Shown: positions 12,188-62,703 of the stretch, piece after piece
Numbering within the stretch: the first letter of the stretch is position 1
How the letters are laid out: the number at the start of each line of letters is the position of its first letter
Source of the DNA: an uncultured Bacteroidales bacterium
GTDB lineage: Bacteria; Bacteroidota; Bacteroidia; Bacteroidales; WCHB1-69
Assembly: GCA_900317715.1 (NCBI GenBank)
Contig: ONHS01000002.1
Location: 20,183-84,182, forward strand
Length of the DNA: 64,000 bases
Direction: 5' to 3'
The notes under the pieces: generated by a model
The model's database searches: none
Seen by the model: the letters and a program-made list of their open reading frames with translations, nothing else
What the model was told of the DNA's origin: nothing
Translations under genes and position numbers: made by a program

Positions 12188-12213
12188 CCGCGTTGGAGAT
12201 GAGGGAGTAGCCC

Positions 12214-12297
12214 CTAAACTCTAAACTCTAAACTCTAAACCCTAAACCCTAAACTCTAAACTCTAAACCCTCAACCCTAAACCCTAAACCCTAAACC
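12214..12297. repeat. Tandem array of 12 heptamers CTAAAC[CT], a permutation of CCCTAAA
   Basis: Read directly: ctaaact x3, ctaaacc x2, ctaaact x2, ctaaacc, ctcaacc, ctaaacc x3. Confidence 0.95.
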
Positions 12298-12304
12298 CAA
12301 AGAA

Positions 12305-13495: not shown

Positions 13496-13519
13496 CTGTT
13501 GGCTAGGGAAGAGGGACTA

Positions 13520-13620
13520 GGGATTAAGGTTTTGGGTTTATGGTTTAAGGTTTAGGGTTTAGGGTTTATGGTTTTGGGATTAAGGTTTTGGGGTTAAGGT
13601 TTTGGGGTTAAGGTTTAGGG
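13520..13620. repeat. Degenerate tandem array of about 14 heptamers, [GAT]GGTTT[AT] (TTTAGGG-type), inverted relative to 12214-12297
   Basis: gggatta aggtttt gggttta tggttta aggttta gggttta gggttta tggtttt gggatta aggtttt ggggtta aggtttt ggggtta aggttta ggg. Confidence 0.9.
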
Positions 13621-13660
13621 ATGAGAGCCTAAGTTCCTACTCCAAAGTCATCTGCAATGC

Positions 13661-13745
13661 TTTTTTCCTTTAGACGGAAAATTTTTCCTCTAGGCGGAAA
13701 ACAATGTACTTCTTGTGGAAATTTCCGCAGGAGGAAAATCCATTA
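13661..13745 (+). promoter_or_regulatory. Operator-like direct repeats of a TTTTCC-N7-GGAAAA palindrome upstream of the giant gene
   Basis: ttttttcctttagacggaaaa / tttttcctctaggcggaaaac, then ggaaatttcc..ggaaaatcc. All lie just upstream of the -7 box at 13759. Confidence 0.4.
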
Positions 13746-13758
13746 CATATATAAGTAG

Positions 13759-13766
13759 TACTTTTG
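13759..13766 (+). promoter_or_regulatory. -7 promoter box TACTTTTG for the giant surface-protein gene
   Basis: The TAnnTTTG match lies 46 nt upstream of ATG 13812. It overlaps the track's TTG start at 13764, which is therefore rejected. Confidence 0.5.
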
Positions 13767-13811
13767 CGGCCAAAATTTTTAACAGTTACATTCGTAAAAG
13801 AAACTACCATT

Positions 13812-27881: not shown

Positions 27882-27918
27882 TCGGCGAATCGGACCATTT
27901 TTTGCGAACACGAAAAAA

Positions 27919-27949
27919 AGCCCTGGCTCAACGGAGTCAGGGCTTTTTC
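27919..27949. terminator. Bidirectional intrinsic terminator between convergent genes
   Basis: AGCCCTG-gctcaacggagt-CAGGGCT, flanked by A7 upstream and T5 downstream. Confidence 0.7.
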
Positions 27950-27986
27950 AGCTATGAAAAGAGAGTTTATGGTGCCTTTTTCGTCA

Positions 27987-29249
27987 TCACCACCGTTCCA
28001 CGAAATCTCTAACCAACTTGAAGACAGGCTCGTAAGAAACGAAAATGGCATTTTCATAGTTATCCAAAGGGGTATGATAATAGGGGAAGGCATCGCCGCT
28101 CTCATTCTCGAAAAGGATGCTCGGGACTCCTTTTTGGGTGAACGGATAATGGTCGCTGTTACCAGCCAACTCGCCGCGATTCAGCCCCTTAAAGTAGTGC
28201 TTTTCTCCATTGATTTTGTCGAACAACTCAAAACCGCGGTCGGAATTGGTTTCGACATATTGCACAGGGTTGTTGTCGCCAATCATGTCAATGTTGATGA
28301 GGAATTTGATTCGATCCAACGGAACCGTCGGGTGCGCGACATACCATTCCGAACCGCGCAAACCTGCGTCCTCTCCTGAAAAAGCGATGAAGTACATGTC
28401 GTACTCCGGGCGATTTTGCGCGTAATAGGCTGCCAATGTGACGATTGAAGCCGTACCGGAGGCATTGTCGTTCGCGCCCGCGTAGAAGACCTTCTTGCCG
28501 AGATTGCCCAAATGGTCGTAATGTGCCGTGAAGACAAAACAGCTATCGTGGCGACGACCCTCCACCTTGGCAATAACGTTGAAAAGCTCATAATCTTTCA
28601 AAAATTTGTTCTCGATGTTGACCGTGATGCTATTGGCACCTTGCGGAAAATTGGACGCCCAAATTACAGGTTTCCCCGTAACGCGCTCACCGTAAGCCTT
28701 ATAGAATTTGAGATGGGGTTCCCAAAGTTGGATCATACCCGCGTTGGCACAGCTTTTCCCGCCCCAAATTTTCTGAAAATCTTGGTAATGACGGTAGGAG
28801 AACCAAAAGTCGCAAACCACGAAACAGTCCTTGTACTCGGGTTTCGCAAGGTCGGCGAACATCTTCGCAGCGTCGTAGTTGTTCGTATCGACGTAATAAA
28901 GCTTGTAGGTGCCACGCACGCCGGGCGAGTACTCGCGCATGGAAAAATCGATGCCGGGAGTCAACTTCTTGCCATCCACGCTCATCTCCATCTTGCTCGG
29001 GAAGGTGTTGATGTTGATGGTAAACGGCTGGCATTCAACATAATCAACCCCAGTTTTGGAAAACTCCTTTTGCAGGTATTTGCCCGCCTTGTTCGCACCG
29101 CCATAGTAATAGCCGCGACCCTGGTATTTTGCGGAAGACAACTCCTTCAGAACTTGTTTGTAATGCGCCAAATCCTGCGCTTGCAGAGACGACACGCACA
29201 TCGTTTCTACGAATATAAACACCCATGCAAATAAAAACAGTTTTTTCAT
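27987..29249 (-). CDS. M28-family aminopeptidase (secreted)
   Basis: Signal peptide, FVFTAHYDHLG, GANDNASGTASIV, FIAFSGEDAGLRGSEWY, NSDHYPF. Confidence 0.88.
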   Translation of the reverse strand: MKKLFLFAWVFIFVETMCVSSLQAQDLAHYKQVLKELSSAKYQGRGYYYGGANKAGKYLQKEFSKTGVDYVECQPFTININTFPSKMEMSVDGKKLTPGIDFSMREYSPGVRGTYKLYYVDTNNYDAAKMFADLAKPEYKDCFVVCDFWFSYRHYQDFQKIWGGKSCANAGMIQLWEPHLKFYKAYGERVTGKPVIWASNFPQGANSITVNIENKFLKDYELFNVIAKVEGRRHDSCFVFTAHYDHLGNLGKKVFYAGANDNASGTASIVTLAAYYAQNRPEYDMYFIAFSGEDAGLRGSEWYVAHPTVPLDRIKFLINIDMIGDNNPVQYVETNSDRGFELFDKINGEKHYFKGLNRGELAGNSDHYPFTQKGVPSILFENESGDAFPYYHTPLDNYENAIFVSYEPVFKLVRDFVERW

Positions 29250-50054: not shown

Positions 50055-51635
50055 ATGCTCAAATATAAAGTATTCATAAGCAGTGTACAATCGGAGTTTT
50101 CACAAGAACGACAGCTTGTTTTTGACTTCATCCGTAATGACGAGTTGATGGGGCAATACTTTGAGCCGTTCATTTTTGAGCAGATTGCCGCACAAGATGC
50201 GAATCCTCGCCAATTATATTTGGATGAGGCTTCTTCGAGCCAGGTTTATCTCCTGTTGGTGGGAAAGAGGTATGGCAATGTTTTGCCAGACGGCATTTCT
50301 CCAACCGAGAAAGAATATCAAGCAGCAGGAGAGGGCAATGCTTGGAGAGTCGCATTCATCAGCGATTTGGACGGACAGCAACGTGAAGATGCGGAAGAAC
50401 GTTTCTTCCGAAAAGTTCAGAACGAGCTTTCATACCGTGTCTTTTCTAATCCTTCTGTCCTGGTGTCGCTGGTCAAACAATCGCTGTATGCGTATCTTAA
50501 ACACAAAGGCGTTATACAAACATTAAGTTTCGACGAACAGACCCGCGATGATGCCTCTATGGCCGATATTGATGCAACGAAAATCAAAGAATTCTTGCAT
50601 CAGGCCCGTCAAAAACGAGGGTTCCCATTGGCCGAAGACTCCGACCCAATCACGGTGCTCCAGCATCTGAGATTGTTGCGGCAGGACAAGCCCAGCAATG
50701 GAGCGTTACTAATGTTCGCCAACGACCCGCAATACTTTTTCCCCTCTGCGGTGGTCAAATGTGCGTGGTTTCTCGGCACAGAGACGGTAAAACCTATCGA
50801 AGATTATAAAACCTTCGAGGGCGGAGTGGCAGATCAAATCAGCCAAGCCACCAGTTGGGTGATGTCGAAACTGTCGGTGCGTTTTGGCCAGCGAAACGTG
50901 GAGGTGCAAAACGAGGTTGAATTTGAGATACCGCGATCCGTCATCTTCGAGACCATTGTGAATGCCGTGGCCCATCGCGACTACAACAGCACGGGGAGTG
51001 TACAGGTTTCCGTATTCCGAAATCGTATTGTGGTACGCAATCCGGGGACGTTGCCTGTAGAACTCACCAAGGCCGACTTGATGAAAGAACATGGCTCTTA
51101 TCCGCATAACCCGTACTTGGCGGAAGTCTTGTACCAGATGGGCTATATCGAGAAATACGGCACAGGCATCACAGAAAATATCCGCAGGATGCAAGAGGCT
51201 CGTCTCCTTGCTCCGGAGATAGACTTGAGCGCCGAGTTCATTACTACGATCTGGCGTGATAATGATGCAACTAATATTGGAACTAACCTTGGAACTAATA
51301 TTGGAACTAATAATGCAACTAATGATGCAACTAATGGTGCAACTAATGATGCAACTTCTAAAGATTATTTAGCTGTCAATAAGCGTATTATAGATAGAAA
51401 AGTGAAAAAGAAAGTAAGAAAAAGAATGACAGAGCAACAATTACAGGAATGCATCGTTGAGGCTTGTTATGTGGAACATTCTATTGAGGAGCTTGCTAAA
51501 CTGTTGGGAAAGTCAGAGTCACACATACGAAACCGATTCATCACCAATATGGTTGCAGACGGAATTCTTTTGCGAACCAAACCAGAACACTCTTCAGGTC
51601 AGACATACATGACAAATCCAAAACTTGACAAATAG
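50055..51635 (+). CDS. DUF4062 N-terminal domain fused to a HATPase_c_4-type ('RecG-like' putative DNA-binding) module and a C-terminal winged helix
   Basis: KVFISSVQSEFSQERQ...VYLLLVGKRYG (DUF4062-like). IVNAVAHRDYNSTGSVQVSVF.NRIVVRNPG..., HNPYLAEVLYQMGYIEKYGTGI. Low-complexity NIGTNLGTNIGTNNATNDATNGATNDAT. Confidence 0.65.
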   Translation: MLKYKVFISSVQSEFSQERQLVFDFIRNDELMGQYFEPFIFEQIAAQDANPRQLYLDEASSSQVYLLLVGKRYGNVLPDGISPTEKEYQAAGEGNAWRVAFISDLDGQQREDAEERFFRKVQNELSYRVFSNPSVLVSLVKQSLYAYLKHKGVIQTLSFDEQTRDDASMADIDATKIKEFLHQARQKRGFPLAEDSDPITVLQHLRLLRQDKPSNGALLMFANDPQYFFPSAVVKCAWFLGTETVKPIEDYKTFEGGVADQISQATSWVMSKLSVRFGQRNVEVQNEVEFEIPRSVIFETIVNAVAHRDYNSTGSVQVSVFRNRIVVRNPGTLPVELTKADLMKEHGSYPHNPYLAEVLYQMGYIEKYGTGITENIRRMQEARLLAPEIDLSAEFITTIWRDNDATNIGTNLGTNIGTNNATNDATNGATNDATSKDYLAVNKRIIDRKVKKKVRKRMTEQQLQECIVEACYVEHSIEELAKLLGKSESHIRNRFITNMVADGILLRTKPEHSSGQTYMTNPKLDK

Positions 51636-51680
51636 GATTGAAATGTTGTCGGCGCGAAAATAGGTTTCGTGATTTATTCG

Positions 51681-51688
51681 TATTTTTG
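51681..51688 (+). promoter_or_regulatory. -7 promoter box of the WYL gene within the shared 25-nt element
   Basis: TTTCGTGATTTATTCGTATTTTTGC (51665-51689), 24/25 identical to 49985-50009. Confidence 0.5.
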
Positions 51689-51709
51689 CCGCCGAAAAAT
51701 CGAAACAAT

Positions 51710-52792
51710 ATGCCCGCAAACAAAAACGCTGTCACGCGCTACTACATTCTCGACAAGTTGTTGGCGAACCGTTACCACAACTACTCGACCGAGGATTTGT
51801 GCCGTCTGGTCAACGAGGAGTTGGAAGAATTGAAGCCAGAAAAGAAAGAGAGTTGGCAAGTGAGCCGTCGTACCATTGAACTTGACCTTCATTATTTGGA
51901 ACACGAAAGCCCTTTTGTCGCTGATATAGAGCATTATCAGATTGATGATGTAAGTCCACGAACTCTCAAGACGATCAAGAAAAGTTGCCATCGTTATGCG
52001 GATCCATCGTTCTCCATCTTCACGCAGAAGCTTACGGATGACGAGAAACATCTGCTTGGCGAAGCTTTCACCCTCCTTGGACAATTTGATGGTCTGCCGA
52101 ATCTTGAGGGTTTGGAAAGGCTCAGGGAGAGTCTCAAAGTGAAGACTGACCGCCAGATTGTGTCGTTCACCAAGAATCCTTTGGAAGGAAAGAGTCTGTT
52201 GGGGGAATTGTTCACTGCCATCACGCAGAAGCAGGTGGTGGAGTTGCATTTCCACAAGTTCGACACGCCTGAAACAGACCGTTCGGCGGTGGTTTTCCCC
52301 TATTTGCTCAAGGAGTATAACCGTCGTTGGTATCTCATCGCTGCTGCCGAAGACACGGGCAAAATACTCAGCTTCGCCCTCGACCGTCTGGACAAGTTCG
52401 TCCCGTTGCCCGCACGTCATTATAAGGAATACGATGGAGACCTCAACGAATGTTTCGAGGACATCATCGGGGTGACGCTCATCGAAGGCAATCCATTGCA
52501 GACCATCCTCTTCTGGGTCAGCGACTATTCCAAAGATTATGTCGCCACAAAACCCTTGCACGAGTCCCAGCGGCATCATAAAGGAAAGCAGGAAAAGGAA
52601 TTGCGCCAACAATACCCGAATCTTGACGGGGGCGCGTTCTTCTCCATCGACTGCATCGAGAACTACGAGCTGATCAGGGAACTGACTTCTTTCGGCAAAG
52701 AGTTGTTGGTTCTTGCTCCGGAGAAAATGCAAGAAGTAATTATCACTAAAATAACAGATATGCTTAACAAATACCAGATGCTAAGCAAATAA
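51710..52792 (+). CDS. WYL-domain transcriptional regulator (HTH-WYL-WCX architecture)
   Basis: Start at MPANKNAVTRYYILDKLL (HTH). VVFPYLLKEYNRRWYLIAAAEDTGKILSFALDRL (WYL core). C-terminal ELLVLAPEKMQE. Confidence 0.85.
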   Translation: MPANKNAVTRYYILDKLLANRYHNYSTEDLCRLVNEELEELKPEKKESWQVSRRTIELDLHYLEHESPFVADIEHYQIDDVSPRTLKTIKKSCHRYADPSFSIFTQKLTDDEKHLLGEAFTLLGQFDGLPNLEGLERLRESLKVKTDRQIVSFTKNPLEGKSLLGELFTAITQKQVVELHFHKFDTPETDRSAVVFPYLLKEYNRRWYLIAAAEDTGKILSFALDRLDKFVPLPARHYKEYDGDLNECFEDIIGVTLIEGNPLQTILFWVSDYSKDYVATKPLHESQRHHKGKQEKELRQQYPNLDGGAFFSIDCIENYELIRELTSFGKELLVLAPEKMQEVIITKITDMLNKYQMLSK

Positions 52793-53126: not shown

Positions 53127-54602
53127 ATGGAAGAAAAATTTGGCTTATTAAAATTGGGCAGTGTAATAAATTTGAAAACTAATGGAAAAGGACAAAATTG
53201 CATATCAAGATTATCCCTTTTACTTGGTCGCAGAATAACATTAAAAGAAATAAATGAATTCATCGAATCGGACAGGTTTTCTCTTGAGTACATTGACAAA
53301 GATGGAAATGAAACAAAGAAAGATTCTTGCACGGGATTTCGATTCAAGTTACCATGGCAAGATGTTAGAGGGAATGACGTTTATGGTCATTTCAAAAAAA
53401 ATGGCTCCATTTTTATGGGTGTGATTTGGAGCGGAAAAAGTGGAAAAAGAAATGTAAACCTTAGAAAGCATGGACACGTTGATCAAACCAGTTGGGATAA
53501 ACTAAAAAAACTATGTGGCAATGAAATAAGTGAGAGTAGTATTGGAGATTATATTACCTCAGATATTGAATATTACAATGGCGCAGGTTACACTAAATTT
53601 CCTGATGGTACAGTGGTAACTTCGGAAACTGGAAAATTCGTTAAGTTTAATACTAGTCTTAATGTCGGAGGGGAAGTGCTGGTTGGCTGGTTTACAAAAG
53701 TTCGAGGACGTTTTGAGGGAATAAGTTGGGGAACGGAAGCGGATTTTAAATCGGCTCAAGAGTTAAGAGAACAGTTCTTTGTGGGGCGTATGGTTTTTGA
53801 TTCTATAGAGAAATGCAACATCTTTTTGGAAGAGCTTAAGGGAAAAATCATTCCTGAGCCATGGGAGTACAAACGTAAGAAAGACGATACTTTTAAAAAC
53901 CCAATATTGAAATCCTATCTACAGTTTGAATTGGATAGACTTTTCTATGAACAGGATGTGTTAAACTATCCCGATAGGATAATAACCAACGAAAGCAATA
54001 GTAAAGTATGGTTTAACACAAATCTTATTAACATATATGGAAAAGAATTGTTTCTTGTTGGCACTCTTTTAGAAATATCTAACAAGATATATATAGGCGA
54101 TCTTGAAATATCACCATCCACAATGAAAATGAGGCAGCTGGGGTTTAAATCATCAAAAAAGCCTTTGCCACCTGTGTTTTTTAAGGATATAAATGAGATT
54201 TTTTTCCATTGGGACTGGGAGATAGATCTAGATATGATAAAATCCGAACACATTATAGGAGAGCGTAAGGAGAGATTTCCGGGAAAATACCATAAGATGA
54301 CAACAGATTCTTTAGGTCGCATACTTGATTCTGCAATAGAATTAGCAAGAAGTATAGCACAACGAAACTATAAGTTTATCGTACCAATGTACTATCCTAC
54401 TGCAAATAGGATTCAATTGTTAATGCCGATATATTTAGAAACTTCTTATTTCGGTAAACCGGATTTTGCGTTAGTATTAACTCCTCATGCAAATGAAAAG
54501 TTGTATACTCCCGAAACAATACTAGGATTAGATGAAGTTTATCAGGATGCGCGGTTAATAGCAAAGCCTGAAGAATCTTGGCTTAACCCTGAGATGTTAT
54601 AA
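53127..54602 (+). CDS. Hypothetical 491-aa protein: two beta-rich N-terminal modules plus a C-terminal region that I tentatively liken to DUF3825
   Basis: Internal duplication: FRFKLPWQDVRGNDVYGHFKKNGSIFMGVIWSG vs VKFNTSLNVGGEVLVGWFTKVRGRFEGISWGT. C-terminal half: PWEY..NPILKSYLQFELDRLFYEQ...WFNTNLINIYGKELF...YQDARLIAKPEESWL. Confidence 0.6.
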   Translation: MEEKFGLLKLGSVINLKTNGKGQNCISRLSLLLGRRITLKEINEFIESDRFSLEYIDKDGNETKKDSCTGFRFKLPWQDVRGNDVYGHFKKNGSIFMGVIWSGKSGKRNVNLRKHGHVDQTSWDKLKKLCGNEISESSIGDYITSDIEYYNGAGYTKFPDGTVVTSETGKFVKFNTSLNVGGEVLVGWFTKVRGRFEGISWGTEADFKSAQELREQFFVGRMVFDSIEKCNIFLEELKGKIIPEPWEYKRKKDDTFKNPILKSYLQFELDRLFYEQDVLNYPDRIITNESNSKVWFNTNLINIYGKELFLVGTLLEISNKIYIGDLEISPSTMKMRQLGFKSSKKPLPPVFFKDINEIFFHWDWEIDLDMIKSEHIIGERKERFPGKYHKMTTDSLGRILDSAIELARSIAQRNYKFIVPMYYPTANRIQLLMPIYLETSYFGKPDFALVLTPHANEKLYTPETILGLDEVYQDARLIAKPEESWLNPEML

Positions 54603-54658: not shown

Positions 54659-57600
54659 ATGAAATATCCTACAGTTTCAGAATATATAGAATCTCTTCGT
54701 GTTGCAAATGATAATCTTGCAACTTTGACGTCTTTGGAGCTTGTTCTTGGTACTGATGGAAATCCAACTTATTCGAAAGAAAACCATGGTGTTGTCTTTC
54801 GGATGAAAGATAGGGATACCGATTTAGAGTATAATGTAAAATGTTTTACTGATGAACAAGAAGGCAGAGAAACATTGTATGAGCAAATTAATAATAGTCA
54901 AGGTGTATGGTTCCCTGATGGAGTTAAATATTATGCTAACGAGCTATTTGTAGATACTGCGATTTCGGATGCTAATGAATTTCCAGTAGTTGTTATTCCT
55001 TGTTGCAAAACGACAAACCTTATTTCTTTTATCAACACAAACATTGCAAATTGCTCGCTTATCTCAAAACTTGCAGATAGTTTTAGTTGTGTTGTAGAAT
55101 GGGTTAAAGAAAAGGGTTGCTTTTGGCATGAACTAAATGTCGATTCACTTTATGTGAACGACACTGGTCATATTGTTGTTTCGGATATTGACGGACACAT
55201 TGAAACAACTAATTCTACCAAGAAAAACGATGATTTGAACGCATACCTAATTCTTCTATCGCTAAAAGCACTGTATAGGGATTCAAGTTTGTTCAATGCA
55301 AAAGACGTCAAGCCGTATATTCTCTTCGATGGGGATAATTTCACCGAGCTTCCTGCAAATGAGATTATTACAAGATTGTCGATATTAAATGATTCTGAGA
55401 TTTCATCCATAATTAGTGATGTTTTCGTAAAAATTGGACATGGCAATTCTAATGAAACGCGAAACGACTTGCAGCAATCCGAGATTTATGAAGACGGCCT
55501 AAAAATGATGGCGGAAAAGGGAAATGTTACAATGCAATTGCAGCTGGCGCGGAAATGTTGGGATAATGAAATGTATGAAGAATCATTTAAATGGTATAAA
55601 CAAGCAGCATCTCAAGAGGATGCAGATGGTTTATATGGCTTAGGATTGTGTTATCGTAATGGTTTTGGAATAGAAAAGGATTTGACAAAATCATTTCATT
55701 GTTTTCTTAATGCTTCTGAGTTGGGATTGTTGGATGCTCAATATGAACTTGCTGAAGCATATTATTTCGGATGGGGAGTTCGCAAGGATAAGACAAAGGC
55801 AATGGATTTGTATTTCAAAGCTGCTCAAAGGGGGCATGCTATGTCAGAATTTATGATTGGTCATTATCTTATGTTCAATCGTGGAGAGATTGACAGCTCT
55901 TTTGCCATTACAAGTAAACGTGATACAGTGAAGGCATTTGAATGGTTTTTGAAATCCGCTAAACAAGGTTATCATCCTGCACAACGAAGGATAGGTGCAT
56001 TCTATGAAACCGGCACAGACCCTTGTGTAAGAAATATTAGCAAAGCTATGGAGTGGTATCAAAAGGCAGCTGCCCAAGGTAATGATAAAGCCTTGTTTGC
56101 AATAGGAAGATTGTATGCCAATGGTCTTGATGAAAGAAATCCTGATAACAAGAAAGCTTATGAGTATTATTTGCAAGCGGCAAATAAAGGTCTTCGTGAT
56201 GCTCAGTTTAGGGTAGGTGTTGCATTGTTATTTGGCAAGGGGATAGAAAAGGATAAAGATGCAGCTGTTGAGTGGATTCGAAAATCTGCTGACAAAGGTT
56301 ATGCGGCGGCAAAAAAGCTTATCATTGAAATTGAATATAGTGAAGAAGTCTCTGAAGAAACGGGAACCACAGGATTAGAAATAGTATCTGCTACTATTGA
56401 CGATTATGGTGTTCTTTATAGTCAAAACGGGAAAAAACTTTTGAAATATAGTATAGAAGAAGGATTCGATAGTGATGGAATATACGGTGGTTCAATAAGC
56501 ATGTTTGATGAAGAAAGCGAATTTGGAAGCATAAAACAACAAAGTTTAAATCAATATAAAGTAAAAGAAGGGACAGAGATAATCTGTGAGAATGCTTTTT
56601 ACGAATGTGAGTCGTTGGAAAGCATATCTTTACCTTCTACGCTACATGTAATTGGGGAGAGTGCTTTTTTCGGATGTGAAAATCTCTCTTGTGTAACATC
56701 ATATTCCACTCTTAAAAGAATAGGAGAACGAGCTTTTATGGATTGTCATAGTCTAAAGTCAATTGACACTTTAGATGGTGTTGAATCTATCGGGGAGGGT
56801 GCTTTTTCTGGTTGCTATAGTTTGCACAATCTCACTTTGCCAAGTACTTTACAGAAGATAACAGGAAGTACTTTACATGGAGTAAAAAGAATCTTATCCG
56901 AATCAAAAAAATTTTTGGTGGAAGACAATTGTTTGTTAAGTTCAGATAAAAAAACACTGATATATTTTATTCAAAACGAATTAAAGACCTTTGAGATTCC
57001 TAATGGTGTCGAAATCATCGGTTCTTCTGCATTTGAAGGAGCGAATGTTAATTATTTGAAAATCCCTGAAAGTGTCAAAATCATTGGAAATTCATCATTT
57101 TCTGGATGTGCATTAAGGGAAATCTTTTTGCCAGATTCAGTAATACAAATTGGTTATTCAGCTTTTTGTGGGTGCGAAAGTCTAACGAAGGTTCGTTTGC
57201 CGAACCGATTATCTTCTATTGACATACAAACTTTTGATTCGTGTTATAGACTAACAAACATTCATTTACCTAGTTCCATTAAAGAAATTAATCATTGGGC
57301 TTTTGCAAGGACAGGACTCTCTTCTTTTTGTTTTCCTATAAATGTTGAAAAAATTGGATGGGGATTGTTTGCAGGTACTCAAATTAAAAAAATAAATTCG
57401 GAATCAGAATCAATTATTGTTAGAGACATGGCTGTTTATAGCAATCTTGGAAAAACACTATCTCAATATTATGGAAATGAAAAAAAGTTTGTGATTCCAG
57501 AAGGGGTTGAAGAAATATCCAAATTAACTTTCACATCTTATATCAAAGAAATAATCTTTCCAAAGTCAATAAAAAAACTCTGTGATATGATATGGTACGA

Positions 57601-57715
57601 CGGTACTATTCCGGAGAAAATATATGTGCACAAAGAATTCAAAAAAGTCATTCTTGAATATTTACCAGAGTATTATTATAGTCATGTATTTGTAATTGAA
57701 GATGATAGTAATTGA
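54659..57715 (+). CDS. 1018-aa cytoplasmic multidomain protein: N-terminal protein-kinase-like (divergent) domain + about 7 Sel1 repeats + BspA-type leucine-rich repeats
   Basis: No signal peptide. aa 40-190: VVFRMKD..EYNVKCF (beta3 Lys-like), CFWHELNVDSLYVNDTGHIVVSDIDGH (catalytic / DFG-like loops, non-canonical). aa 290-560: Sel1 (AAQGNDKALFAIGRLYANG, ADKGYAAAKKLI). aa 620-1000: ICENAFYECESLESISLPSTLHVIGESAFFGCENL, repeated. Confidence 0.75.
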   Translation: MKYPTVSEYIESLRVANDNLATLTSLELVLGTDGNPTYSKENHGVVFRMKDRDTDLEYNVKCFTDEQEGRETLYEQINNSQGVWFPDGVKYYANELFVDTAISDANEFPVVVIPCCKTTNLISFINTNIANCSLISKLADSFSCVVEWVKEKGCFWHELNVDSLYVNDTGHIVVSDIDGHIETTNSTKKNDDLNAYLILLSLKALYRDSSLFNAKDVKPYILFDGDNFTELPANEIITRLSILNDSEISSIISDVFVKIGHGNSNETRNDLQQSEIYEDGLKMMAEKGNVTMQLQLARKCWDNEMYEESFKWYKQAASQEDADGLYGLGLCYRNGFGIEKDLTKSFHCFLNASELGLLDAQYELAEAYYFGWGVRKDKTKAMDLYFKAAQRGHAMSEFMIGHYLMFNRGEIDSSFAITSKRDTVKAFEWFLKSAKQGYHPAQRRIGAFYETGTDPCVRNISKAMEWYQKAAAQGNDKALFAIGRLYANGLDERNPDNKKAYEYYLQAANKGLRDAQFRVGVALLFGKGIEKDKDAAVEWIRKSADKGYAAAKKLIIEIEYSEEVSEETGTTGLEIVSATIDDYGVLYSQNGKKLLKYSIEEGFDSDGIYGGSISMFDEESEFGSIKQQSLNQYKVKEGTEIICENAFYECESLESISLPSTLHVIGESAFFGCENLSCVTSYSTLKRIGERAFMDCHSLKSIDTLDGVESIGEGAFSGCYSLHNLTLPSTLQKITGSTLHGVKRILSESKKFLVEDNCLLSSDKKTLIYFIQNELKTFEIPNGVEIIGSSAFEGANVNYLKIPESVKIIGNSSFSGCALREIFLPDSVIQIGYSAFCGCESLTKVRLPNRLSSIDIQTFDSCYRLTNIHLPSSIKEINHWAFARTGLSSFCFPINVEKIGWGLFAGTQIKKINSESESIIVRDMAVYSNLGKTLSQYYGNEKKFVIPEGVEEISKLTFTSYIKEIIFPKSIKKLCDMIWYDGTIPEKIYVHKEFKKVILEYLPEYYYSHVFVIEDDSN

Positions 57716-58403
57716 GTCAAAAAGAAAGAAACCAGAAACCCTGCTTGGGGAATATCCTAATGCGGTGTTTTGTGATGTGACGAGCAAATCACCATATCTT
57801 GAATTAAGGCAATTAAGTCCGTTTTATCCATGGGGAGGTATACCTGTTAGTTTTTCACCAGGAGTTGAAGCCTCTTGTGTAGAAGCAGTATGGCAAGGAT
57901 TGAAAGTGTTTGAAAACGCTGATGTTGATACGGAATTGTTTTTAAACAACACTATGAAAGGTCTAAAACGTTCGTCACGAGTTTATGGTAAAGTCTTGGG
58001 GCACAGGAAAGGTGTTGATGGTGAAATATTACTTAATTATCATGATGCTCGTAGAAAAATATACATTCCCACATATAAGTGGATGTTGGAACATAAAGCT
58101 TTTTATACCATTGAATATTTAAGGGCTTTTTGCCAAGAAAACCCCAACGTCACTCTCGTATTATTAGATTATCAGACAAATAGCAATATTGAGGATCTAA
58201 CCAAGCCTTTGTCTCACGCATTTTTGGTTAAATCATACGTAGAGGGATTGCCTCCGTATGATGATGTAGTGATAGAGAAAACGGTTCACCATGTGGTCGT
58301 TGGGCGACGTGTTCATGAATGGCAAACAAAAGAGTATTCATTTAAGAAGCTCCCAGTGGTTGACGACAATAACAAACAATTAGCAATTGATTTCGATGAA
58401 TAG
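57702..58403 (+). CDS. NADAR-like (YbiA/DUF1768-like) protein; candidate ADP-ribose-removing antidote
   Basis: LSPFYPWGGIPVSF..VEASCVEAVWQGLKVF, compared with my recollection of E. coli YbiA (FSNFAAWPIKVDGKTWPTSEHYFQAQKF). It overlaps the upstream gene by 14 nt and the downstream gene by 8 nt. Confidence 0.5.
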   Translation: MIVIESKRKKPETLLGEYPNAVFCDVTSKSPYLELRQLSPFYPWGGIPVSFSPGVEASCVEAVWQGLKVFENADVDTELFLNNTMKGLKRSSRVYGKVLGHRKGVDGEILLNYHDARRKIYIPTYKWMLEHKAFYTIEYLRAFCQENPNVTLVLLDYQTNSNIEDLTKPLSHAFLVKSYVEGLPPYDDVVIEKTVHHVVVGRRVHEWQTKEYSFKKLPVVDDNNKQLAIDFDE

Positions 58404-59805
58404 AAGGAAGGATTACAAAGAATTTAAGCAACTTCTTGAGAAGTATAATATTACAAAGTTTTATCACTTCACAGACCATGACAATGTTGATTCTATAATC
58501 AAGAATGGTGGATTGTTCTCTTATGGTGATTGTATTAAACGCGGAATTAGAATAAACAGGCCAGGTGGGTCGGCGTTGTCGCACGAACTGGATTATAAAG
58601 AAAATTTGCAAAATTATGTTAGGGTTAGTTTATGCAAGAAACATCCAATGATGTTTACAGCAATACAGGATGAACGAATCGTAAACCCTGTGATATTGGA
58701 AATTGACACAGATGTTCTTTTTATAGAGGGTAATATTTTTTCAGATAAGAATGCGGTTCGGAAAGATTCATGTAAGGGAAAGAGTTTCGCTGATTTTAGC
58801 AGAATACATTTCAATACAGTCAAACAAAGGAACCAATTTGAGGTTGATGATGACGAGCAAGACTATTATCAGGCAGAAATACTGGTACCACATCACATCT
58901 CGCTTAACTATATTTTGAATTTGACCGATTTCCAAACATTGGATTCTGAGAGAAAAGAGAGTTGTCTTAAGATACCTTATTCTTCAGCCATTACTCGGGA
59001 AAATCCAGCTGGTATTTTCTTCATACTTAATCAATCGTATCCCACAGAAGAAAAGATAGAGTATGGAGGTGAAAAGATGTCCAAGGCAAGAGTTGAAGGA
59101 GGCATTGTTGATAAAGTGATAAACGAACTTATTTTGAGTAATACAAGTAATGGCGTCCTCAATGATAAGTATAATATTTCTGTTATTGGATATGGTGACT
59201 ATGCGTATAGTTGCATTGAAAAAGGAAATGTTCATACTTTGAAAGAGCTCCAAGATAATCCATTGTTTGTTAGAACAATGTCCAAAAAAACTAAGACACG
59301 ACAAGGAACAAAAACAATCGAGATAAAACAACCAACATGGATAAAAACTAATAGTGATGGGGATGCAAAACTATATAAAGCCCTAAATAAAGCTCGAGAT
59401 ATAATTGAGAACTGGGCAGAGGAACATGAATCGTCATACCCACCTATTGTGATACACATCACAGAATACAGATACCATGGCGCGGATGATAGTGATATGA
59501 AGCAAATGGCAAACCAAATAAAGTCCATATTTACAAAAGATGGGAATGCCTTGTTTTTCAACATCATTCTCACGGAAAAGGAAGATGCTGTTTCCGTACT
59601 ATTTCCATATGACAATCAAGCAGTTTCAGACTCATATTATGGGACGATGTATTGTTTAATGTCCAGCATTTTGCCAAAATCATTTAATCAAAATGTCGCT
59701 TGTTTTAATGAGATTGAAGATGTTTTATGTCAAAGATATGGAATAGCCTTTAATGTTAAATTCAAGGACTTATTTGATACTATACTCTCTATTATACCAA
59801 AATGA
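58396..59805 (+). CDS. DarT-like (DUF4433) ADP-ribosyltransferase fused to a vWA-like domain with a degenerate MIDAS
   Basis: N-terminus: KFYHFTDHDNVDSIIKNGGL, LQNYVRVSLCKKHPMMF, PVILEIDTDVLFIEGNIFSDKNAV, DYYQAEILVPHHISLNYILNL. These are collinear with the DarT motifs IYHITH..NL..IL, DYVPFYF, FTD.N and KQAEFLV (catalytic Glu). C-terminus: IFFILNQSYP... YNISVIGYGD... GDAKLYKALNKARDII... PPIVIHITEY..., a TerY-type vWA layout with DxSxS -> NQSYP. Confidence 0.8.
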   Translation: MNRRKDYKEFKQLLEKYNITKFYHFTDHDNVDSIIKNGGLFSYGDCIKRGIRINRPGGSALSHELDYKENLQNYVRVSLCKKHPMMFTAIQDERIVNPVILEIDTDVLFIEGNIFSDKNAVRKDSCKGKSFADFSRIHFNTVKQRNQFEVDDDEQDYYQAEILVPHHISLNYILNLTDFQTLDSERKESCLKIPYSSAITRENPAGIFFILNQSYPTEEKIEYGGEKMSKARVEGGIVDKVINELILSNTSNGVLNDKYNISVIGYGDYAYSCIEKGNVHTLKELQDNPLFVRTMSKKTKTRQGTKTIEIKQPTWIKTNSDGDAKLYKALNKARDIIENWAEEHESSYPPIVIHITEYRYHGADDSDMKQMANQIKSIFTKDGNALFFNIILTEKEDAVSVLFPYDNQAVSDSYYGTMYCLMSSILPKSFNQNVACFNEIEDVLCQRYGIAFNVKFKDLFDTILSIIPK

Positions 59806-60400: not shown

Positions 60401-60754
60401 ATGAACAATACTCTACGTGTTATACTGAAGGTCCTGATGGTCATCACCTGGGTTTTGATGATGGGGTGGTATATATCCCTTCTCCTCACCCTCCTGCAGG
60501 CATATCGCATGTACGGGAATATGCCCATTGGTGAAGTTCCATACTTTTCTCTGCCCATGTTCGATTTTTGTTTTGTGTTTGGATTTTTCAATTTTCTGGT
60601 GATGATATTCATGGGATTTCCTTTGAATCTTTGGAATATGGTCAATGAATTCAAGTTCAAGAAGTTCAGTACCCTTATGATTTCGGCCTGTTACATTTTC
60701 CTTGCCGTGGTATTCGTTATCATTTGGTTTTACCTTTGGTCATATATCGACTGA
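60401..60754 (+). CDS. Small 3-4-TM membrane protein upstream of vanW-like
   Basis: MNNTLRVILKVLMVITWVLMMGW... An alternative TTG start lies at 60386. Confidence 0.5.
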   Translation: MNNTLRVILKVLMVITWVLMMGWYISLLLTLLQAYRMYGNMPIGEVPYFSLPMFDFCFVFGFFNFLVMIFMGFPLNLWNMVNEFKFKKFSTLMISACYIFLAVVFVIIWFYLWSYID

Positions 60755-60779
60755 TCTCATCTTGTTTTTCACCCCAACA

Positions 60780-61595
60780 ATGAAACGGAAACTGTTTTGT
60801 GAAATATCACCTTTTACCTATCGTCTTTCGACGGAGAAGGAAATCCTGAAGCGGCATCTGAAGGATTTGTCCCAGAAGACCCTCTTTGCCAAAGAAAGAT
60901 CAACAACAGCATTGCCTGAGCTTGTTTGGCAGCACAATTCCCTTATCCGTCGTCGGTTAGGCAATGTCAATATGCAATTGCAGGAGAACAAGGCCACCAA
61001 TTTGGCTTTGGCCGTGAAACACATTGACAGACTGCTGATTCGTCCCGGCGAGACCTTCTCGGTCTGGAAGTGCATCGGCCGAACCACTAAGCGGAAGGGC
61101 TACAAAGAGGGGCTTACCATCGCGAAAGGGCAGCCGGCGCAAGGAATTGGCGGCGGGATGTGCCAATTGTCGAACCTGATACACTGGATGGTTCTGCATA
61201 GCGAGCTGACCATCACGGAGCACCATCACCACGACGGGTTGGACCTTTTCCCCGATTTCGGCCGGCAAATTCCGTTCGGCACAGGCACCAGCATCTCGTA
61301 CAACTACCTCGATTACCGGGTGAGGAACGACTCGGACAACACCTACCAACTACGGTTATGGGTGGATGAGGAATATCTCTGTGGCGAACTCCGCGCGGCA
61401 GAACCCCAACCCCACACCTTCCATATCCATATCGAGAATGAACGCTTTACCCGTGAAGACGGGGTCGTCTATCGCAACGGCGAGGTCTATCGGGACATCC
61501 TCGATCCCGCCACGGGTCGCTGTCTCGACAGCCAACTCATCCGCACCAACCACGCCAAGGTTATGTACGAATGTCCGGAGGAACTAATCGAATAA
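60780..61595 (+). CDS. VanW-family protein
   Basis: Start at MKRKLFCEISPFTY. PGETFSVWKCIGRTTKRKGY, QGIGGGMCQLSNLIHW, GTGTSISYNYLDYRVRN. Confidence 0.85.
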   Translation: MKRKLFCEISPFTYRLSTEKEILKRHLKDLSQKTLFAKERSTTALPELVWQHNSLIRRRLGNVNMQLQENKATNLALAVKHIDRLLIRPGETFSVWKCIGRTTKRKGYKEGLTIAKGQPAQGIGGGMCQLSNLIHWMVLHSELTITEHHHHDGLDLFPDFGRQIPFGTGTSISYNYLDYRVRNDSDNTYQLRLWVDEEYLCGELRAAEPQPHTFHIHIENERFTREDGVVYRNGEVYRDILDPATGRCLDSQLIRTNHAKVMYECPEELIE

Positions 61596-61919: not shown

Positions 61920-62222
61920 ATGAGCACCGAAATGATGAAAAAGGTTATTGCCGACTACTTTGAGACGCAGCCCGTCTTGAAGGCTTGGCTTTTCGGTTCC
62001 TTCGCCCGTGGCGAGGAGACCCCGAGAAGCGATGTGGATATCCTTTTCGTGCCCGACCGCTCTGGCAAACCCTTCACGCTCTTCACGCATGGCGGCATGC
62101 TGATGGATTTGCAGGAGTTGCTCGGACGCGAGGTCGATTTGGTAGAAGAAGGATCGCTCCGTCCGTATGCCGCTGAAACAGCTAACCGTGATAAAATACT
62201 GATTTATGAGAGAAAGAGCTAG
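61920..62222 (+). CDS. MNT-type nucleotidyltransferase (antitoxin of the HepT/MNT type VII TA pair)
   Basis: WLFGSFARGEETPRSDVDILF (GSxxRGxxxxxSDxD). Confidence 0.85.
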   Translation: MSTEMMKKVIADYFETQPVLKAWLFGSFARGEETPRSDVDILFVPDRSGKPFTLFTHGGMLMDLQELLGREVDLVEEGSLRPYAAETANRDKILIYERKS

Positions 62223-62703
62223 AGACAAAGGGCGTTTGGAGGATATCATTGAATATTCCGACAATGTCACGAAGTTCATCAGTGGCCACACTTTTGAGAC
62301 ATTTGTTGCCGACAAGCTTACATACTATTCCGTGATGAAGAATGTGGAAGTAGTGGGCGAAGCAGCCTATATGTTGAGCAAAGCATTTAAAAAGGCACAT
62401 TCTAAGACACCTTGGAAGACAGTTCAGGGTATGCGCCACGTCTTAGTTCACGACTATGCCAATGTTGTTGCAGCAACACTCTACGACACCGCCGTCAACG
62501 GTATCCCCGAATTACGCGAACAGGTGGAGAAGTACCTCGCAGAAACAGACTGGGAGGCATGGGCTTCCGCTCCTGACGATTTTGAAGACTCCGTTGATGA
62601 AAGTGTTGCGAAAGTCGCCCGCAACATGAAAGCCAAAGGTTATGCCGTTGGCGATATTGCCGAGATTACGGGGTTGACGGAGGAGGAGATAAGGGGATTG
62701 TAG
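62206..62703 (+). CDS. HepT-like (DUF86) toxin with a C-terminal extension of about 50 aa
   Basis: Rx4HxY motif in QGMRHVLVHDYANV. Overlaps the MNT gene by 17 nt. The tail ends AKGYAVGDIAEITGLTEEEIRGL. Confidence 0.8.
   Translation: MRERARDKGRLEDIIEYSDNVTKFISGHTFETFVADKLTYYSVMKNVEVVGEAAYMLSKAFKKAHSKTPWKTVQGMRHVLVHDYANVVAATLYDTAVNGIPELREQVEKYLAETDWEAWASAPDDFEDSVDESVAKVARNMKAKGYAVGDIAEITGLTEEEIRGL

What the first reader, a model, noticed from the sequence alone, without database searches (positions are those of the whole stretch)
58396..59805. DarT-like ADP-ribosyltransferase fused to a vWA-like domain with a degenerate metal site
The first ~200 aa are collinear with all the DarT (DUF4433) motifs I can recall. 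This includes the NAD-binding YH.T block and the QAE[IF]LV block holding the catalytic Glu, so the ART looks catalytically competent.

The remaining ~265 aa have the beta-alpha-beta rhythm and landmark positions of a TerY-type vWA domain. The MIDAS DxSxS reads N-Q-S-Y-P, and the later Thr and Asp positions are also substituted. This suggests a protein-interaction rather than a metal-dependent role.

Canonical DarT toxins are single-domain proteins. A covalently attached vWA module implies regulated docking, for example onto the kinase-like/Sel1/LRR protein or a phage target.
Basis: partly seen in the sequence, partly recalled or inferred. Interest (0 to 1): 0.8.

Follow-up and report, generated by a model that had tools for sequence, protein, structure and literature searches.

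The report
DarT toxin fused to dead-MIDAS vWA
This gene encodes a DNA-modifying toxin domain (DarT-like) joined to a docking domain that has lost its metal site, and it belongs to a conserved three-gene module of gut and rumen Bacteroidales that looks like a previously undescribed, rewired offshoot of a known anti-phage system.

Summary
ORF 58396..59805 (+, 469 aa) is a two-domain protein. The N-terminal half matches DarT (Pfam 8.8e-28; Foldseek to Thermus DarT 4.8e-8). The C-terminal half is a TerY-type vWA domain (PADLOC TerY 1.8e-34; Foldseek to CMG2 and integrin I domains). The MIDAS reads N212-Q-S-Y-P216, the Thr position is Ala324 and the Asp position is Glu357.

The DarT residues match guanine-specific DarT1 rather than DarT2: Ser78 at the 'Y' position, Asn119 at the base-reading position, plus Met86, Asp66, Gln159 and Glu161.

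About 200 Bacteroidales species carry a DarT-vWA relative. In 74 of the 88 loci I examined it sits in a full TerY-P triad with an intact MIDAS, a PP2C phosphatase and active kinases. The window's clade (14/14 loci here, plus 3 more looked up) has lost the MIDAS, the PP2C and the kinase catalytic loop together. Its partner is a pseudokinase-Sel1-LRR protein.

DUF6939, encoded just upstream with overlapping stop and start codons, accompanies this DarT subfamily in every architecture seen. It shares the NADAR E-x6-K motif (hhalign 82%), so it is the likely antitoxin, although fold search did not support NADAR.

I rate it a new variant of known kinds (DarT-NADAR and TerY-P). No paper describing it was found.

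The parts
58396..59805 (+). DarT-vWA fusion gene (469 aa), the effector of the module
   Evidence: ORF. Pfam DarT 8.8e-28. PADLOC TerY 1.8e-34. AF2 model pLDDT 90 with Foldseek hits to DarT and vWA structures.
58396..58950 (+). DarT1-like ADP-ribosyltransferase domain (aa 1-185). Key residues: H24-F25-T26 (58465-58473), D66, S78, M86, N119, Q159-A160-E161 (the E161 codon is 58876-58878).
   Evidence: Family profile against PDB: DarT1 8baq 5.6e-10, DarT2 7omv 0.059. Residue map to E. coli C7 DarT1 and PMC11543638. The nine DarT1-equivalent positions tabulated are identical in 83 of 88 loci (S78 or M86 is substituted in five); H24, F25, T26, D66, N119, Q159 and E161 are identical in all 88.
58975..59802 (+). 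TerY-type vWA domain (aa about 194-469) with a degenerate MIDAS. N212-Q-S-Y-P216 is at 59029-59043, A324 (Thr position) at 59365-59367, and E357 (Asp position) at 59464-59466.
   Evidence: PADLOC TerY over residues 194-461. Foldseek vWA hits. MIDAS columns compared across 88 loci. Pfam VWA models do not detect it.
57702..58403 (+). DUF6939 gene, the constant partner of this DarT subfamily and the probable antitoxin (NADAR-like motif E63-x6-K70, D158). The ORF listing starts it at TTG 57696, but homologues start at the ATG at 57702.
   Evidence: Pfam DUF6939 2.1e-64 and NADAR-DarT1 0.0042. Adjacent to the DarT gene (in one locus, L096, separated from it by the Sel1-LRR gene) in all examined loci that retain enough flanking sequence, apart from three exceptions (L059, L060, L061; L086 has it about 4 kb away). 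hhalign against true NADAR-DarT1: probability 82%, E 1e-5. Its stop overlaps the DarT-vWA start.
54659..57715 (+). Pseudokinase-Sel1-LRR_5 protein (1018 aa), the proposed sensor and scaffold. The kinase-like domain is aa 1-270 (54659-55468), the Sel1 repeats are aa about 280-600, and the BspA-type LRR_5 region is aa about 650-1018.
   Evidence: Pfam Sel1 1.5e-48 and LRR_5 1.5e-64. The N-terminus against an L001 TerY-P kinase gives BLASTP 4e-31. The catalytic loop AHGDIKSDN is replaced by WHELNVDSL.
56617..57684 (+). Hypervariable LRR_5 cassette inside the sensor gene
   Evidence: No blastn match to the otherwise ~99% identical locus L009. Amino-acid identity drops from at least 98% (aa 1-650) to about 40% (aa 651-1018).
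53127..54602 (+). DUF3825 gene (491 aa). It is an accessory gene of the low-GC island and is not part of the conserved core.
   Evidence: Pfam DUF3825 4.6e-47. Present in L009 at 80% nt identity but absent from the other clade loci.

Best explanation
The gene is the effector of a three-gene conflict module, most likely anti-phage or abortive-infection. The module descends from a DarT-armed TerY-P system.

**Shown**
- The protein joins a DarT1-like ADP-ribosyltransferase with intact catalytic residues to a TerY-type vWA domain.
- In the larger sister clade the same fusion has an intact MIDAS and sits in an operon with a PP2C phosphatase and active Ser/Thr kinases.
- In the window's clade the MIDAS, the PP2C and the kinase catalytic loop are all gone. 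The DarT residues, the vWA fold, a pseudokinase-Sel1-LRR_5 partner and DUF6939 are kept.

**Inferred mechanism**
1. The pseudokinase-Sel1-LRR protein is the sensor, and its swappable LRR cassette recognises a trigger such as a phage protein.
2. The metal-free vWA domain is a protein-protein adaptor. It couples DarT to the pseudokinase scaffold and replaces the ancestral phosphorylation/MIDAS switch with direct, binding-controlled regulation.
3. On activation, DarT uses NAD+ to ADP-ribosylate single-stranded DNA. The target is probably guanine N2, as in DarT1, because the base-reading residue is Asn119. This blocks replication of the phage and/or the host.
4. DUF6939 is translationally coupled just upstream. 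It acts as the antitoxin, probably as a NADAR-related glycohydrolase that removes the adduct, and possibly also by binding the toxin.
For: - **Domain identities:**
- **DarT1-type residues:** H24, F25, T26, D66, S78, M86, N119, Q159 and E161, mapped through onto the residues tested by mutagenesis in PMC11543638. H24, F25, T26, D66, N119, Q159 and E161 are identical in all 88 loci, while S78 or M86 is substituted in five.
- **Sister-clade operon:** L001 is TerY (1.3e-51), PP2C (6.9e-13) and two STK_OB kinases (about 1e-54).
- **Co-variation of the switch parts:** 74 of 74 PP2C-bearing loci have DxSxS/T/D. 14 of 14 PP2C-less loci do not. Every genuine kinase homologue in the first set keeps the H-x-D-x-K-x-x-N catalytic loop (H[G/C]D…N) and DYDG. 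None in the second set does (one spurious L046 ORF set aside).
- **Synteny:** the Sel1-LRR_5, DUF6939 and DarT-vWA genes are syntenic, with overlapping or abutting genes in most loci, in all MIDAS-less loci.
- **Fusion evidence:** the same DarT module is fused directly to LRR_5 or to Sel1+LRR_5 in other proteins.
- **Variable LRR:** cassette swap between near-identical strains.
- **DUF6939:** it accompanies this DarT subfamily whatever the fusion partner. It shares the NADAR E-x6-K block.
- **Island context:** low-GC island among other defence-type genes.
Against: - No activity was or could be measured here.
- The catalytic Arg of DarT1/DarT2 (R52/R51) has no clear aligned equivalent. The NAD-loop position is H, R or W in the family. 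The guanine-contacting K74 and Y75 of DarT1 are not conserved, so the substrate could differ.
- The DUF6939 model (pLDDT 88) gave no Foldseek match to any PDB entry (best E 2.1), although the PDB holds a DarT1-associated NADAR, 8bat. HMM searches of PDB sequences also found nothing.
- The MIDAS, PP2C and kinase losses map to essentially one clade. They therefore count as about one evolutionary event, not many independent ones.
- No direct evidence exists for a vWA-pseudokinase contact, for phage defence, or for a trigger.
- PADLOC does not call the window's module as any system.
Confidence: 0.55

Rival explanations
1. The module is a plain two-gene toxin-antitoxin pair (DUF6939 and DarT-vWA). 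The MIDAS-less vWA domain is an evolutionary relic with no regulatory role. The Sel1-LRR protein is functionally independent, for example a BspA-like adhesin.
For: - The stop-start overlap and antitoxin-first order are typical of TA pairs.
- DUF6939 and this DarT module occur together without vWA or Sel1-LRR in other loci.
- BspA-type LRR_5 proteins are often surface proteins (NCBIfam adhesin-like weak hits).
Against: - The vWA fold is confidently predicted and conserved at 40-50% identity across the MIDAS-less clade, so it is not decaying.
- The Sel1-LRR gene is syntenic in every MIDAS-less locus and overlaps DUF6939 by about 14-20 nt in the window.
- Its N-terminus is a cytoplasmic-type kinase-like domain homologous to TerY-P kinases, and the sequence shows no obvious signal peptide.
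Confidence: 0.15
2. The architecture is as in the best explanation, but the DarT domain does not modify ssDNA guanine. It targets another base, RNA, a protein recruited by the vWA domain, or simply consumes NAD+.
For: - The R52-equivalent Arg is not identifiable.
- The guanine-contacting K74 and Y75 of DarT1 are not conserved.
- NCBIfam toxin_DarT scores only 41 bits against a cut-off of 150.
- vWA domains typically bind proteins.
Against: - The base-reading Asn (N119, equivalent to N104), together with M86, D66, Q159 and E161, matches the DarT1 catalytic set.
- The partner shares the NADAR motif, and NADAR is known to reverse guanine ADP-ribosylation (PMC11543638).
Confidence: 0.15
3. The protein is a secreted or contact-dependent inter-bacterial (polymorphic) toxin. 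DUF6939 is its immunity protein, and the vWA, Sel1 and LRR parts mediate delivery or target-cell binding.
For: - The DarT module is found at either end of many multi-domain proteins with repeat domains, always next to DUF6939. This resembles toxin/immunity cassettes.
- The LRR part is hypervariable.
Against: - No secretion, trafficking or pre-toxin domains (Rhs, T6SS, T9SS CTD, signal peptide) were detected in any component.
- The ancestral context is the cytoplasmic TerY-PP2C-kinase signalling triad, a validated anti-phage module according to the literature summarised in PMC11090510.
Confidence: 0.07

Closest known systems
DarT1-NADAR (DarTG1) toxin-antitoxin system (E. coli C7, Geobacter lovleyi; PDB 8baq, 8bat)
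   Same: - ART domain of the DarT family, with best PDB sequence match to DarT1 (5.6e-10).
- Shares H-F-T, Ser at the 'Y' position, Met, the base-reading Asn, and Q-x-E.
- The adjacent partner gene shares the NADAR E-x6-K catalytic block (hhalign 82%).
- Two overlapping genes.
   Different: - The toxin carries a 275-aa vWA domain.
- The partner is Pfam DUF6939, below the NADAR-DarT1 gathering score, with no fold match to 8bat.
- The gene order is antitoxin first.
- A third conserved gene (pseudokinase-Sel1-LRR) is present.
- The R52 equivalent is unclear.
TerY-P triad (TerY vWA + PP2C phosphatase + Ser/Thr kinase; PADLOC TerY-P, anti-phage module)
   Same: - The C-terminal domain is a TerY-type vWA (1.8e-34).
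- The neighbour's N-terminal domain is homologous to TerY-P kinases (4e-31).
- The sister clade is a bona fide full triad.
   Different: - The window has no PP2C.
- The kinase has lost its catalytic Asp, Lys and Asn.
- The MIDAS is lost.
- TerY is fused to an enzymatic effector (DarT), and a DUF6939 gene is added.
- The kinase carries Sel1+LRR_5 instead of an OB fold or zinc ribbon.
DarT2-DarG (DarTG2; Thermus, Mycobacterium)
   Same: Same ART fold (Foldseek 7omy 4.8e-8), and the catalytic Glu sits in a QAE-type motif.
   Different: - His119 of DarT2 is Asn here, and Tyr71 is Ser.
- There is no macrodomain antitoxin.
- Profile similarity is much weaker (0.059).

Membership tests
DarT (Pfam PF14487 / DUF4433) | Profile HMM match above the curated gathering score | tested here: met
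   97.8 bits against a cut-off of 22.5, E 8.8e-28, residues 23-175.
DarT (Pfam PF14487 / DUF4433) | ADP-ribosyltransferase fold like the solved DarT structures | tested here: met
   AF2 model pLDDT 90. Foldseek: Thermus DarT 7omy E 4.8e-8 with TMt 0.61; DarT1 8baq E 1.3e-5.
DarT (Pfam PF14487 / DUF4433) | Catalytic Glu and the NAD-binding His-x-Thr | tested here: met
   E161 aligns with E152 (DarT1) and E160 (DarT2). H24 and T26 align with H17 and T19. All are invariant in 88 loci.
DarT (Pfam PF14487 / DUF4433) | Catalytic Arg of the NAD-binding loop (R51 in DarT2, R52 in DarT1) | tested here: inconclusive
   The loop has an indel. The aligned position is Leu, Ala or Glu, and the neighbouring position 63 is His, Arg or Trp. 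Invariant R76 and R94 lie elsewhere, and model coordinates could not be inspected.
DarT (Pfam PF14487 / DUF4433) | NAD-dependent ADP-ribosylation of ssDNA bases | not testable with these tools
   Requires a biochemical assay.
DarT2 equivalog (NCBIfam NF048013 toxin_DarT) | Score above the equivalog cut-off | tested here: not met
   41 bits against a cut-off of 150. His119 is Asn and Tyr71 is Ser.
DarT1 subfamily (guanine-specific) | Asn at the base-reading position, Ser at the H-Y-E 'Y' position, and the catalytic Asp54 and Met71 | tested here: met
   N119, S78, D66 and M86 align with N104, S63, D54 and M71. The guanine contacts K74 and Y75 are not conserved.
DarT1 subfamily (guanine-specific) | Cognate NADAR antitoxin encoded next to it | tested here: inconclusive
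   - The partner is DUF6939. The NADAR-DarT1 HMM is sub-threshold (17-25.6 bits against 27) and hits 9 of 21 members.
- hhalign gives 82% over 70 columns with E-x6-K conserved.
- There is no Foldseek or PDB-sequence match to NADAR 8bat.
vWA / TerY | vWA (Rossmann-like beta-alpha-beta) fold | tested here: met
   Foldseek hits to CMG2, ANTXR and integrin I domains at E 1e-7 to 1e-5 with TMt 0.5-0.7. PADLOC TerY 1.8e-34.
vWA / TerY | MIDAS metal site DxSxS ... T ... D | tested here: not met
   The site reads N212-Q-S-Y-P216, A324 and E357. The sister clade keeps DxSxS, T and TDG in the same columns.
vWA / TerY | Match to the Pfam VWA models (PF00092, PF13519) | tested here: not met
   No hit even at E 10 for residues 191-469. 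There are weak hits for the sister-clade protein and clear hits for the standalone relative P0085.
TerY-P system | PP2C phosphatase gene in the operon | tested here: not met
   tblastn with the L001 PP2C finds nothing in the window or in any of the 14 clade loci, but finds it in 74 of 74 sister-clade loci.
TerY-P system | Active Ser/Thr kinase (HxD catalytic loop with Asn, plus DFG-like Asp) | tested here: not met
   The kinase-like domain is homologous (4e-31), but HGDxKxxN is replaced by HELNVDSL. The VAIK Lys and DxDG are kept.

The most novel reading that the evidence does not exclude
The DarT-TerY fusions define a previously undescribed family of Bacteroidales immune modules, and they point to a mechanism for TerY-P in general, which the accessible literature describes only as a hypothesised signalling switch. 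Under this reading, the TerY vWA domain is the subunit that carries or gates the effector, and its MIDAS reads the phosphorylation state set by the kinase/PP2C pair. The window's clade would then be a natural experiment. Kinase activity, phosphatase and MIDAS were discarded together and replaced by a pseudokinase-Sel1-LRR receptor with exchangeable LRR cassettes. That receptor would control a guanine-specific DNA ADP-ribosyltransferase directly. DUF6939 would be a new, structurally divergent branch of NADAR-type DNA de-ADP-ribosylases.
Probability: 0.3. Interest if true: 0.8.

Novelty: new variant of a known kind. Interest (0 to 1): 0.66.

Why it matters
**Toxin control.** Characterised DarT toxins are small, single-domain and controlled only by their antitoxin. 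Here a DarT1-like enzyme is hard-wired to a signalling adaptor and to a repeat-protein receptor. That would make DNA ADP-ribosylation a regulated immune output rather than a simple TA poison.

**A clue to TerY-P.** The sister clade shows TerY-P triads carrying an explicit enzymatic effector. This gives a testable handle on how TerY-P, whose mechanism is described only as a hypothesis in the literature I could access, transmits its signal. The joint loss of MIDAS, PP2C and kinase catalysis links the MIDAS to the phospho-switch.

**Reach.** The family occurs in roughly 200 species-level genomes of gut and rumen Bacteroidales, including Segatella copri and Parabacteroides distasonis. It is therefore relevant to phage-host dynamics in the microbiome.

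**New enzyme candidate.** DUF6939 is a large family (more than 7,900 clusters) with no literature found. It is a candidate new DNA de-ADP-ribosylase.

Tried and rejected
- **Single-sequence phmmer against PDB.** It gave only a marginal DarT1 hit (0.22), so a family profile was needed.
- **DUF6939 as a clear NADAR.** Not accepted as shown:
  - Profile searches against PDB sequences found nothing relevant.
  - Foldseek of a good model found nothing in the PDB or in BFVD.
  - Only Pfam sub-threshold hits and hhalign support the link.
- **Pfam VWA models on the C-terminal half.** No hit. The fold assignment rests on PADLOC TerY, Foldseek and the transitive link to P0085.
- **Phage origin.** No tblastn match in 50,697 phage records. 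No tRNA or obvious integration signature lies near the island.
- **Promoter and terminator scan.** At background level and uninformative for Bacteroidales.
- **Donor LRR cassettes elsewhere in the window.** None found.
- **DUF3825 as a core component.** Rejected. It is present only in the window and L009.
- **Literature.** Searches for a DarT-vWA or DarT-TerY fusion and for DUF6939 found nothing. The 2012 Ter-systems paper (PMC4104200) is not held, so prior mention there cannot be excluded.
- **Many independent co-losses of MIDAS, PP2C and kinase.** Rejected. The NJ tree shows essentially one clade.
Full report
**1. The observation**

The ORF listing finds an ORF at 58387/58396..59805 on the + strand. 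The ATG overlaps the stop codon of the upstream gene (gatttcgATGAATAG), which suggests translational coupling. The gene lies in a block of about 35% G+C (roughly 53-60 kb), set in sequence of about 46-50% G+C.

**2. Domain identities**

- **N-terminal half.** Pfam places residues 23-175 in DarT (PF14487; E 8.8e-28; 97.8 bits against a cut-off of 22.5). PADLOC gives DarT at 1.3e-15.
- **C-terminal half.** PADLOC gives TerY at 1.8e-34 for residues 194-461.
- **Structure.** An AlphaFold2 model built on a 28-sequence family alignment is confident (pLDDT 90, pTM 0.87). Foldseek against the PDB returns two sets of hits:
  - DarT structures: 7omy at 4.8e-8 with TMt 0.61, and DarT1 8baq at 1.3e-5.
  - vWA domains of CMG2/ANTXR2, TEM8 and integrin I domains, at E about 1e-7 to 1e-5 with TMt 0.5-0.7.
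- **Pfam VWA models.** They do not detect the C-terminal half at all. The standalone relative P0085 (31% identical, E 3.2e-23 to the query) is a clear PF00092 and PF13519 member.

**3. Catalytic residues of the DarT half**

A profile of the family hits E. coli C7 DarT1 (8baq) at 5.6e-10. It hits the Thermosipho DarTG fusion at 3.3e-4 and Thermus DarT2 at only 0.059. I combined that alignment with the mutagenesis described in PMC11543638. The crystallised proteins are Glu-to-Ala mutants, so QAE aligns with QAA.

| This protein | E. coli C7 DarT1 | Note |
|---|---|---|
| H24 / F25 / T26 | H17 / F18 / T19 | NAD binding |
| D66 | D54 | catalytic Asp |
| S78 | S63 | DarT2 has Tyr71 here |
| M86 | M71 | |
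| F87 (Phe or Tyr in the family) | F72 | |
| N119 | N104 | base-coordinating; DarT2 has His119 |
| Q159 | Q150 | |
| E161 | E152 | catalytic Glu |

H24, F25, T26, D66, N119, Q159 and E161 are identical in all 88 loci tabulated. S78 is Gly or Cys in three loci and M86 is Gln in two.

There are two caveats:
- The Arg that is essential in DarT1 and DarT2 (R52 and R51) falls in a loop with an indel and has no clear equivalent.
- The guanine contacts K74 and Y75 are not conserved.

The enzyme therefore looks competent and DarT1-like. Its exact substrate is inferred, not shown.

**4. The MIDAS**

The window protein reads N212-Q-S-Y-P216. It has Ala324 where vWA domains have the MIDAS Thr, and Glu357 where they have the Asp of the TDG motif. 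In the same alignment columns the sister clade reads D-x-S-x-S, (W)T and TDG.

**5. Distribution**

- The word-indexed protein search found 85 clusters, about 80 of them full-length fusions of 428-487 aa.
- A scan of one genome per GTDB species found 200 loci encoding relatives. The best 80 are almost all Bacteroidales. They include Prevotella, Segatella copri (including a complete chromosome), Parabacteroides distasonis, Bacteroides, Duncaniella, Muribaculaceae and Alistipes.
- The window itself is 99% identical to a rumen MAG (RUG13189, locus L009).
- There is no match in the phage collection.

**6. Gene context: two system types**

*Sister clade.* In L001 the operon is DUF6939, DarT-vWA, a 277-aa protein, two kinases and DUF4407. 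PADLOC identifies these as TerY (1.3e-51), PP2C (6.9e-13) and STK_OB (5e-54 and 7e-55). That is a complete TerY-P triad.

*Window clade.* The conserved core is a Sel1-LRR_5 protein, DUF6939 and DarT-vWA, with no PP2C.

*Tabulation across 88 loci*:
- All 74 loci with a PP2C gene have an intact MIDAS. Their kinases keep the H-x-D-x-K-x-x-N catalytic loop (mostly HGD[L/I]KPDN) and DYDG; a few deviate at single positions, and one ORF in L046 in the table is not a kinase.
- All 14 loci without PP2C have the degenerate MIDAS. Their kinase-like domains, where present, have lost the catalytic Asp, Lys and Asn (WHELNVDS, WNKMDISK, WYDLSADS, WSDLDVNK).

*The window's partner.* The first 240 aa of the 1018-aa protein (54659..57715) are homologous to the L001 kinase (BLASTP 4e-31, 27% identity). 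The VAIK-type Lys and the DxDG motif are retained, so this is a pseudokinase that may still bind nucleotide.

*Phylogenetic caveat.* A neighbour-joining tree places all MIDAS-less proteins in one clade. There is one possible independent loss, P0210. The co-loss is striking, but it counts as roughly one evolutionary event.

**7. The partner DUF6939**

- **The gene.** The gene at 57702..58403 matches Pfam DUF6939 (2.1e-64). The family is very large, with more than 7,900 clusters, and no paper mentions it.
- **Linkage.** It lies next to this DarT subfamily in nearly every locus with enough flanking sequence. L059, L060 and L061 are exceptions, and in L086 it lies about 4 kb away. The linkage also holds where the DarT module is fused to something other than vWA, or sits at the C-terminus:
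  - L089 and L091;
  - a P. distasonis plasmid record.
- **Support for a NADAR link:**
  - Nine of 21 members give sub-threshold hits to Pfam NADAR-DarT1 and to no other family consistently. The best is 25.6 bits against a cut-off of 27.
  - hhalign of the DUF6939 alignment against 20 bona fide DarT1-associated NADARs gives probability 82% and E 1e-5 over 70 columns.
  - That stretch contains LSPFYP..G.IP..VE63-x6-K70-VFE, aligned to LSAFHL..G.IP..LE-x6-K-VFE. These are the Glu and Lys shown to be catalytic in E. coli C7 NADAR (E88 and K95, PMC11543638).
  - LLD158Y.TN resembles the FTD-I-E-FN block that holds the catalytic Asp (D171). In the alignment the two Asp residues sit one column apart, so this is a resemblance rather than an aligned match.
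- **Evidence against:**
  - A good model (pLDDT 88) found no structural neighbour in the PDB (best E 2.1) or in BFVD.
  - The PDB does contain a DarT1-associated NADAR, 8bat.
- **Conclusion.** DUF6939 is very probably the cognate antagonist of this DarT. Its NADAR ancestry is plausible but unproven.

**8. Links between DarT and the repeat protein**

- **Many architectures.** An exhaustive HMMER search of 1.84 billion representatives found 2,709 relatives, 209 of them at E ≤ 1e-30. Only about ten representatives are full-length DarT-vWA. The DarT module (40-50% identical) also occurs at the N- or C-terminus of many other architectures.
- **Direct fusions.** Sampled examples are DarT+LRR_5, LRR_5+DarT, DarT+Sel1+LRR_5, DarT+FGE-sulfatase and CpXC+DarT. 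These fusions are Rosetta-stone evidence that the DarT module works together with Sel1/LRR_5 repeat proteins.
- **Cassette swap.** Between the window and the near-identical L009, the sensor protein is at least 98% identical over residues 1-650. Identity is about 40% over residues 651-1018 (the LRR_5 part), with no nucleotide-level match for 56617-57684. DarT-vWA (466 of 469 residues) and DUF6939 (231 of 235) are almost unchanged. The LRR region thus behaves as an exchangeable specificity cassette.

**9. Mechanism**

*Shown:* the domain identities, conservation of the DarT1-type catalytic set, loss of the MIDAS, PP2C and kinase catalysis in this clade, the strict three-gene synteny, the DUF6939 linkage, and LRR hypervariability.

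*Inferred:*
- The pseudokinase-Sel1-LRR protein senses a trigger.
- The metal-free vWA domain docks DarT onto that scaffold, replacing the ancestral phospho/MIDAS switch.
- Activated DarT ADP-ribosylates ssDNA, probably at guanine.
- DUF6939 reverses or blocks this in uninfected cells.

Background on TerY-P as a proposed metal-sensing phospho-switch and as a stand-alone anti-phage module comes from PMC11090510.

**10. Comparison and novelty**

- The protein is a member of the DarT Pfam family and has a TerY-type vWA fold. It fails the MIDAS criterion.
- Its operon fails the PP2C and active-kinase criteria of TerY-P, and it lacks a DarG macrodomain.
- It is best described as a new variant that combines a DarT1-NADAR-like toxin/antitoxin pair with a degenerate TerY-P signalling scaffold.
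- Full-text searches found no description of a DarT-vWA or DarT-TerY fusion, or of DUF6939. The 2012 Ter-systems paper could not be read, so an earlier brief mention cannot be excluded.

**11. Verdict**

- Interest is 0.66. The finding is real, widespread in gut and rumen Bacteroidales, apparently undescribed and mechanistically suggestive for TerY-P.
- It is built from known parts, and all functional steps remain inferred.

Noticed in passing
window 56617-57684 (aa 651-1018 of the gene at 54659..57715) compared with L009 6282-7289: The LRR_5 part of the sensor protein is replaced by a different cassette (about 40% aa identity, no blastn match) in a MAG whose flanking genes are ~99% identical. 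The switch from at least 98% to about 40% identity falls within aa 651-700. This suggests recombinational exchange of a specificity module.
   Followed up: partly
window 53127-54602 (+): This DUF3825 protein (491 aa) has an N-terminal 238 aa with no Pfam match. It belongs to the same low-GC island and is shared with L009 at only 80% nt identity. It is absent from all other related loci, and its function and link to the module are unknown.
   Followed up: partly
window 50055-52792 (+): Two genes lie just upstream of the island. The first combines DUF4062 and HATPase_c_4 and has PADLOC similarity to pAgo-associated SIR2/PNTD proteins (4e-15). The second is a WYL-WCX regulator. Together they suggest a defence-island neighbourhood.
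   Followed up: no
window 61920-62703 (+): An overlapping pair of genes encodes a nucleotidyltransferase (MNT-like, PF01909) and a HepT-like RNase (PF01934). This is a HEPN/MNT toxin-antitoxin module. A VanW-like gene lies at 60702-61595.
   Followed up: no
proteins P0213, P0214, P0216, P0224, P0228, P0258: The same DarT subfamily (40-50% identical) is fused N- or C-terminally to LRR_5, Sel1+LRR_5, an FGE-sulfatase domain or CpXC. It is therefore a promiscuous effector module, not a single-domain toxin.
   Followed up: partly
L003 5251-6048 and L004 105-902: In one relative of the window's module, an ADP-ribosylglycohydrolase gene (PF03747) sits just upstream of the Sel1-LRR/DUF6939/DarT-vWA genes. 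It could be a second de-ADP-ribosylating activity.
   Followed up: no
window protein aa 291-314 (59266-59337): The vWA domain carries a Lys/Arg/Thr-rich beta-hairpin insertion (VRTMSKKTKTRQGTKTIEIKQPTW). It is conserved in both clades but deleted in some members (P0043, P0044, P0051, P0077). It could be a DNA- or partner-binding arm.
   Followed up: no
L001 15082-16542; P0210: A DUF4407 membrane/coiled-coil protein follows the kinases in the L001 TerY-P-type operon. Separately, P0210 sits inside the MIDAS-intact clade but reads N-S-G/I/D, which may be an independent MIDAS loss.
   Followed up: no
window 12000-28000: This long stretch has higher G+C (0.52-0.57 over most of it) and strongly negative GC skew (about -0.10 to -0.14) with high AT skew. 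It is compositionally distinct from the rest of the window.
   Followed up: no
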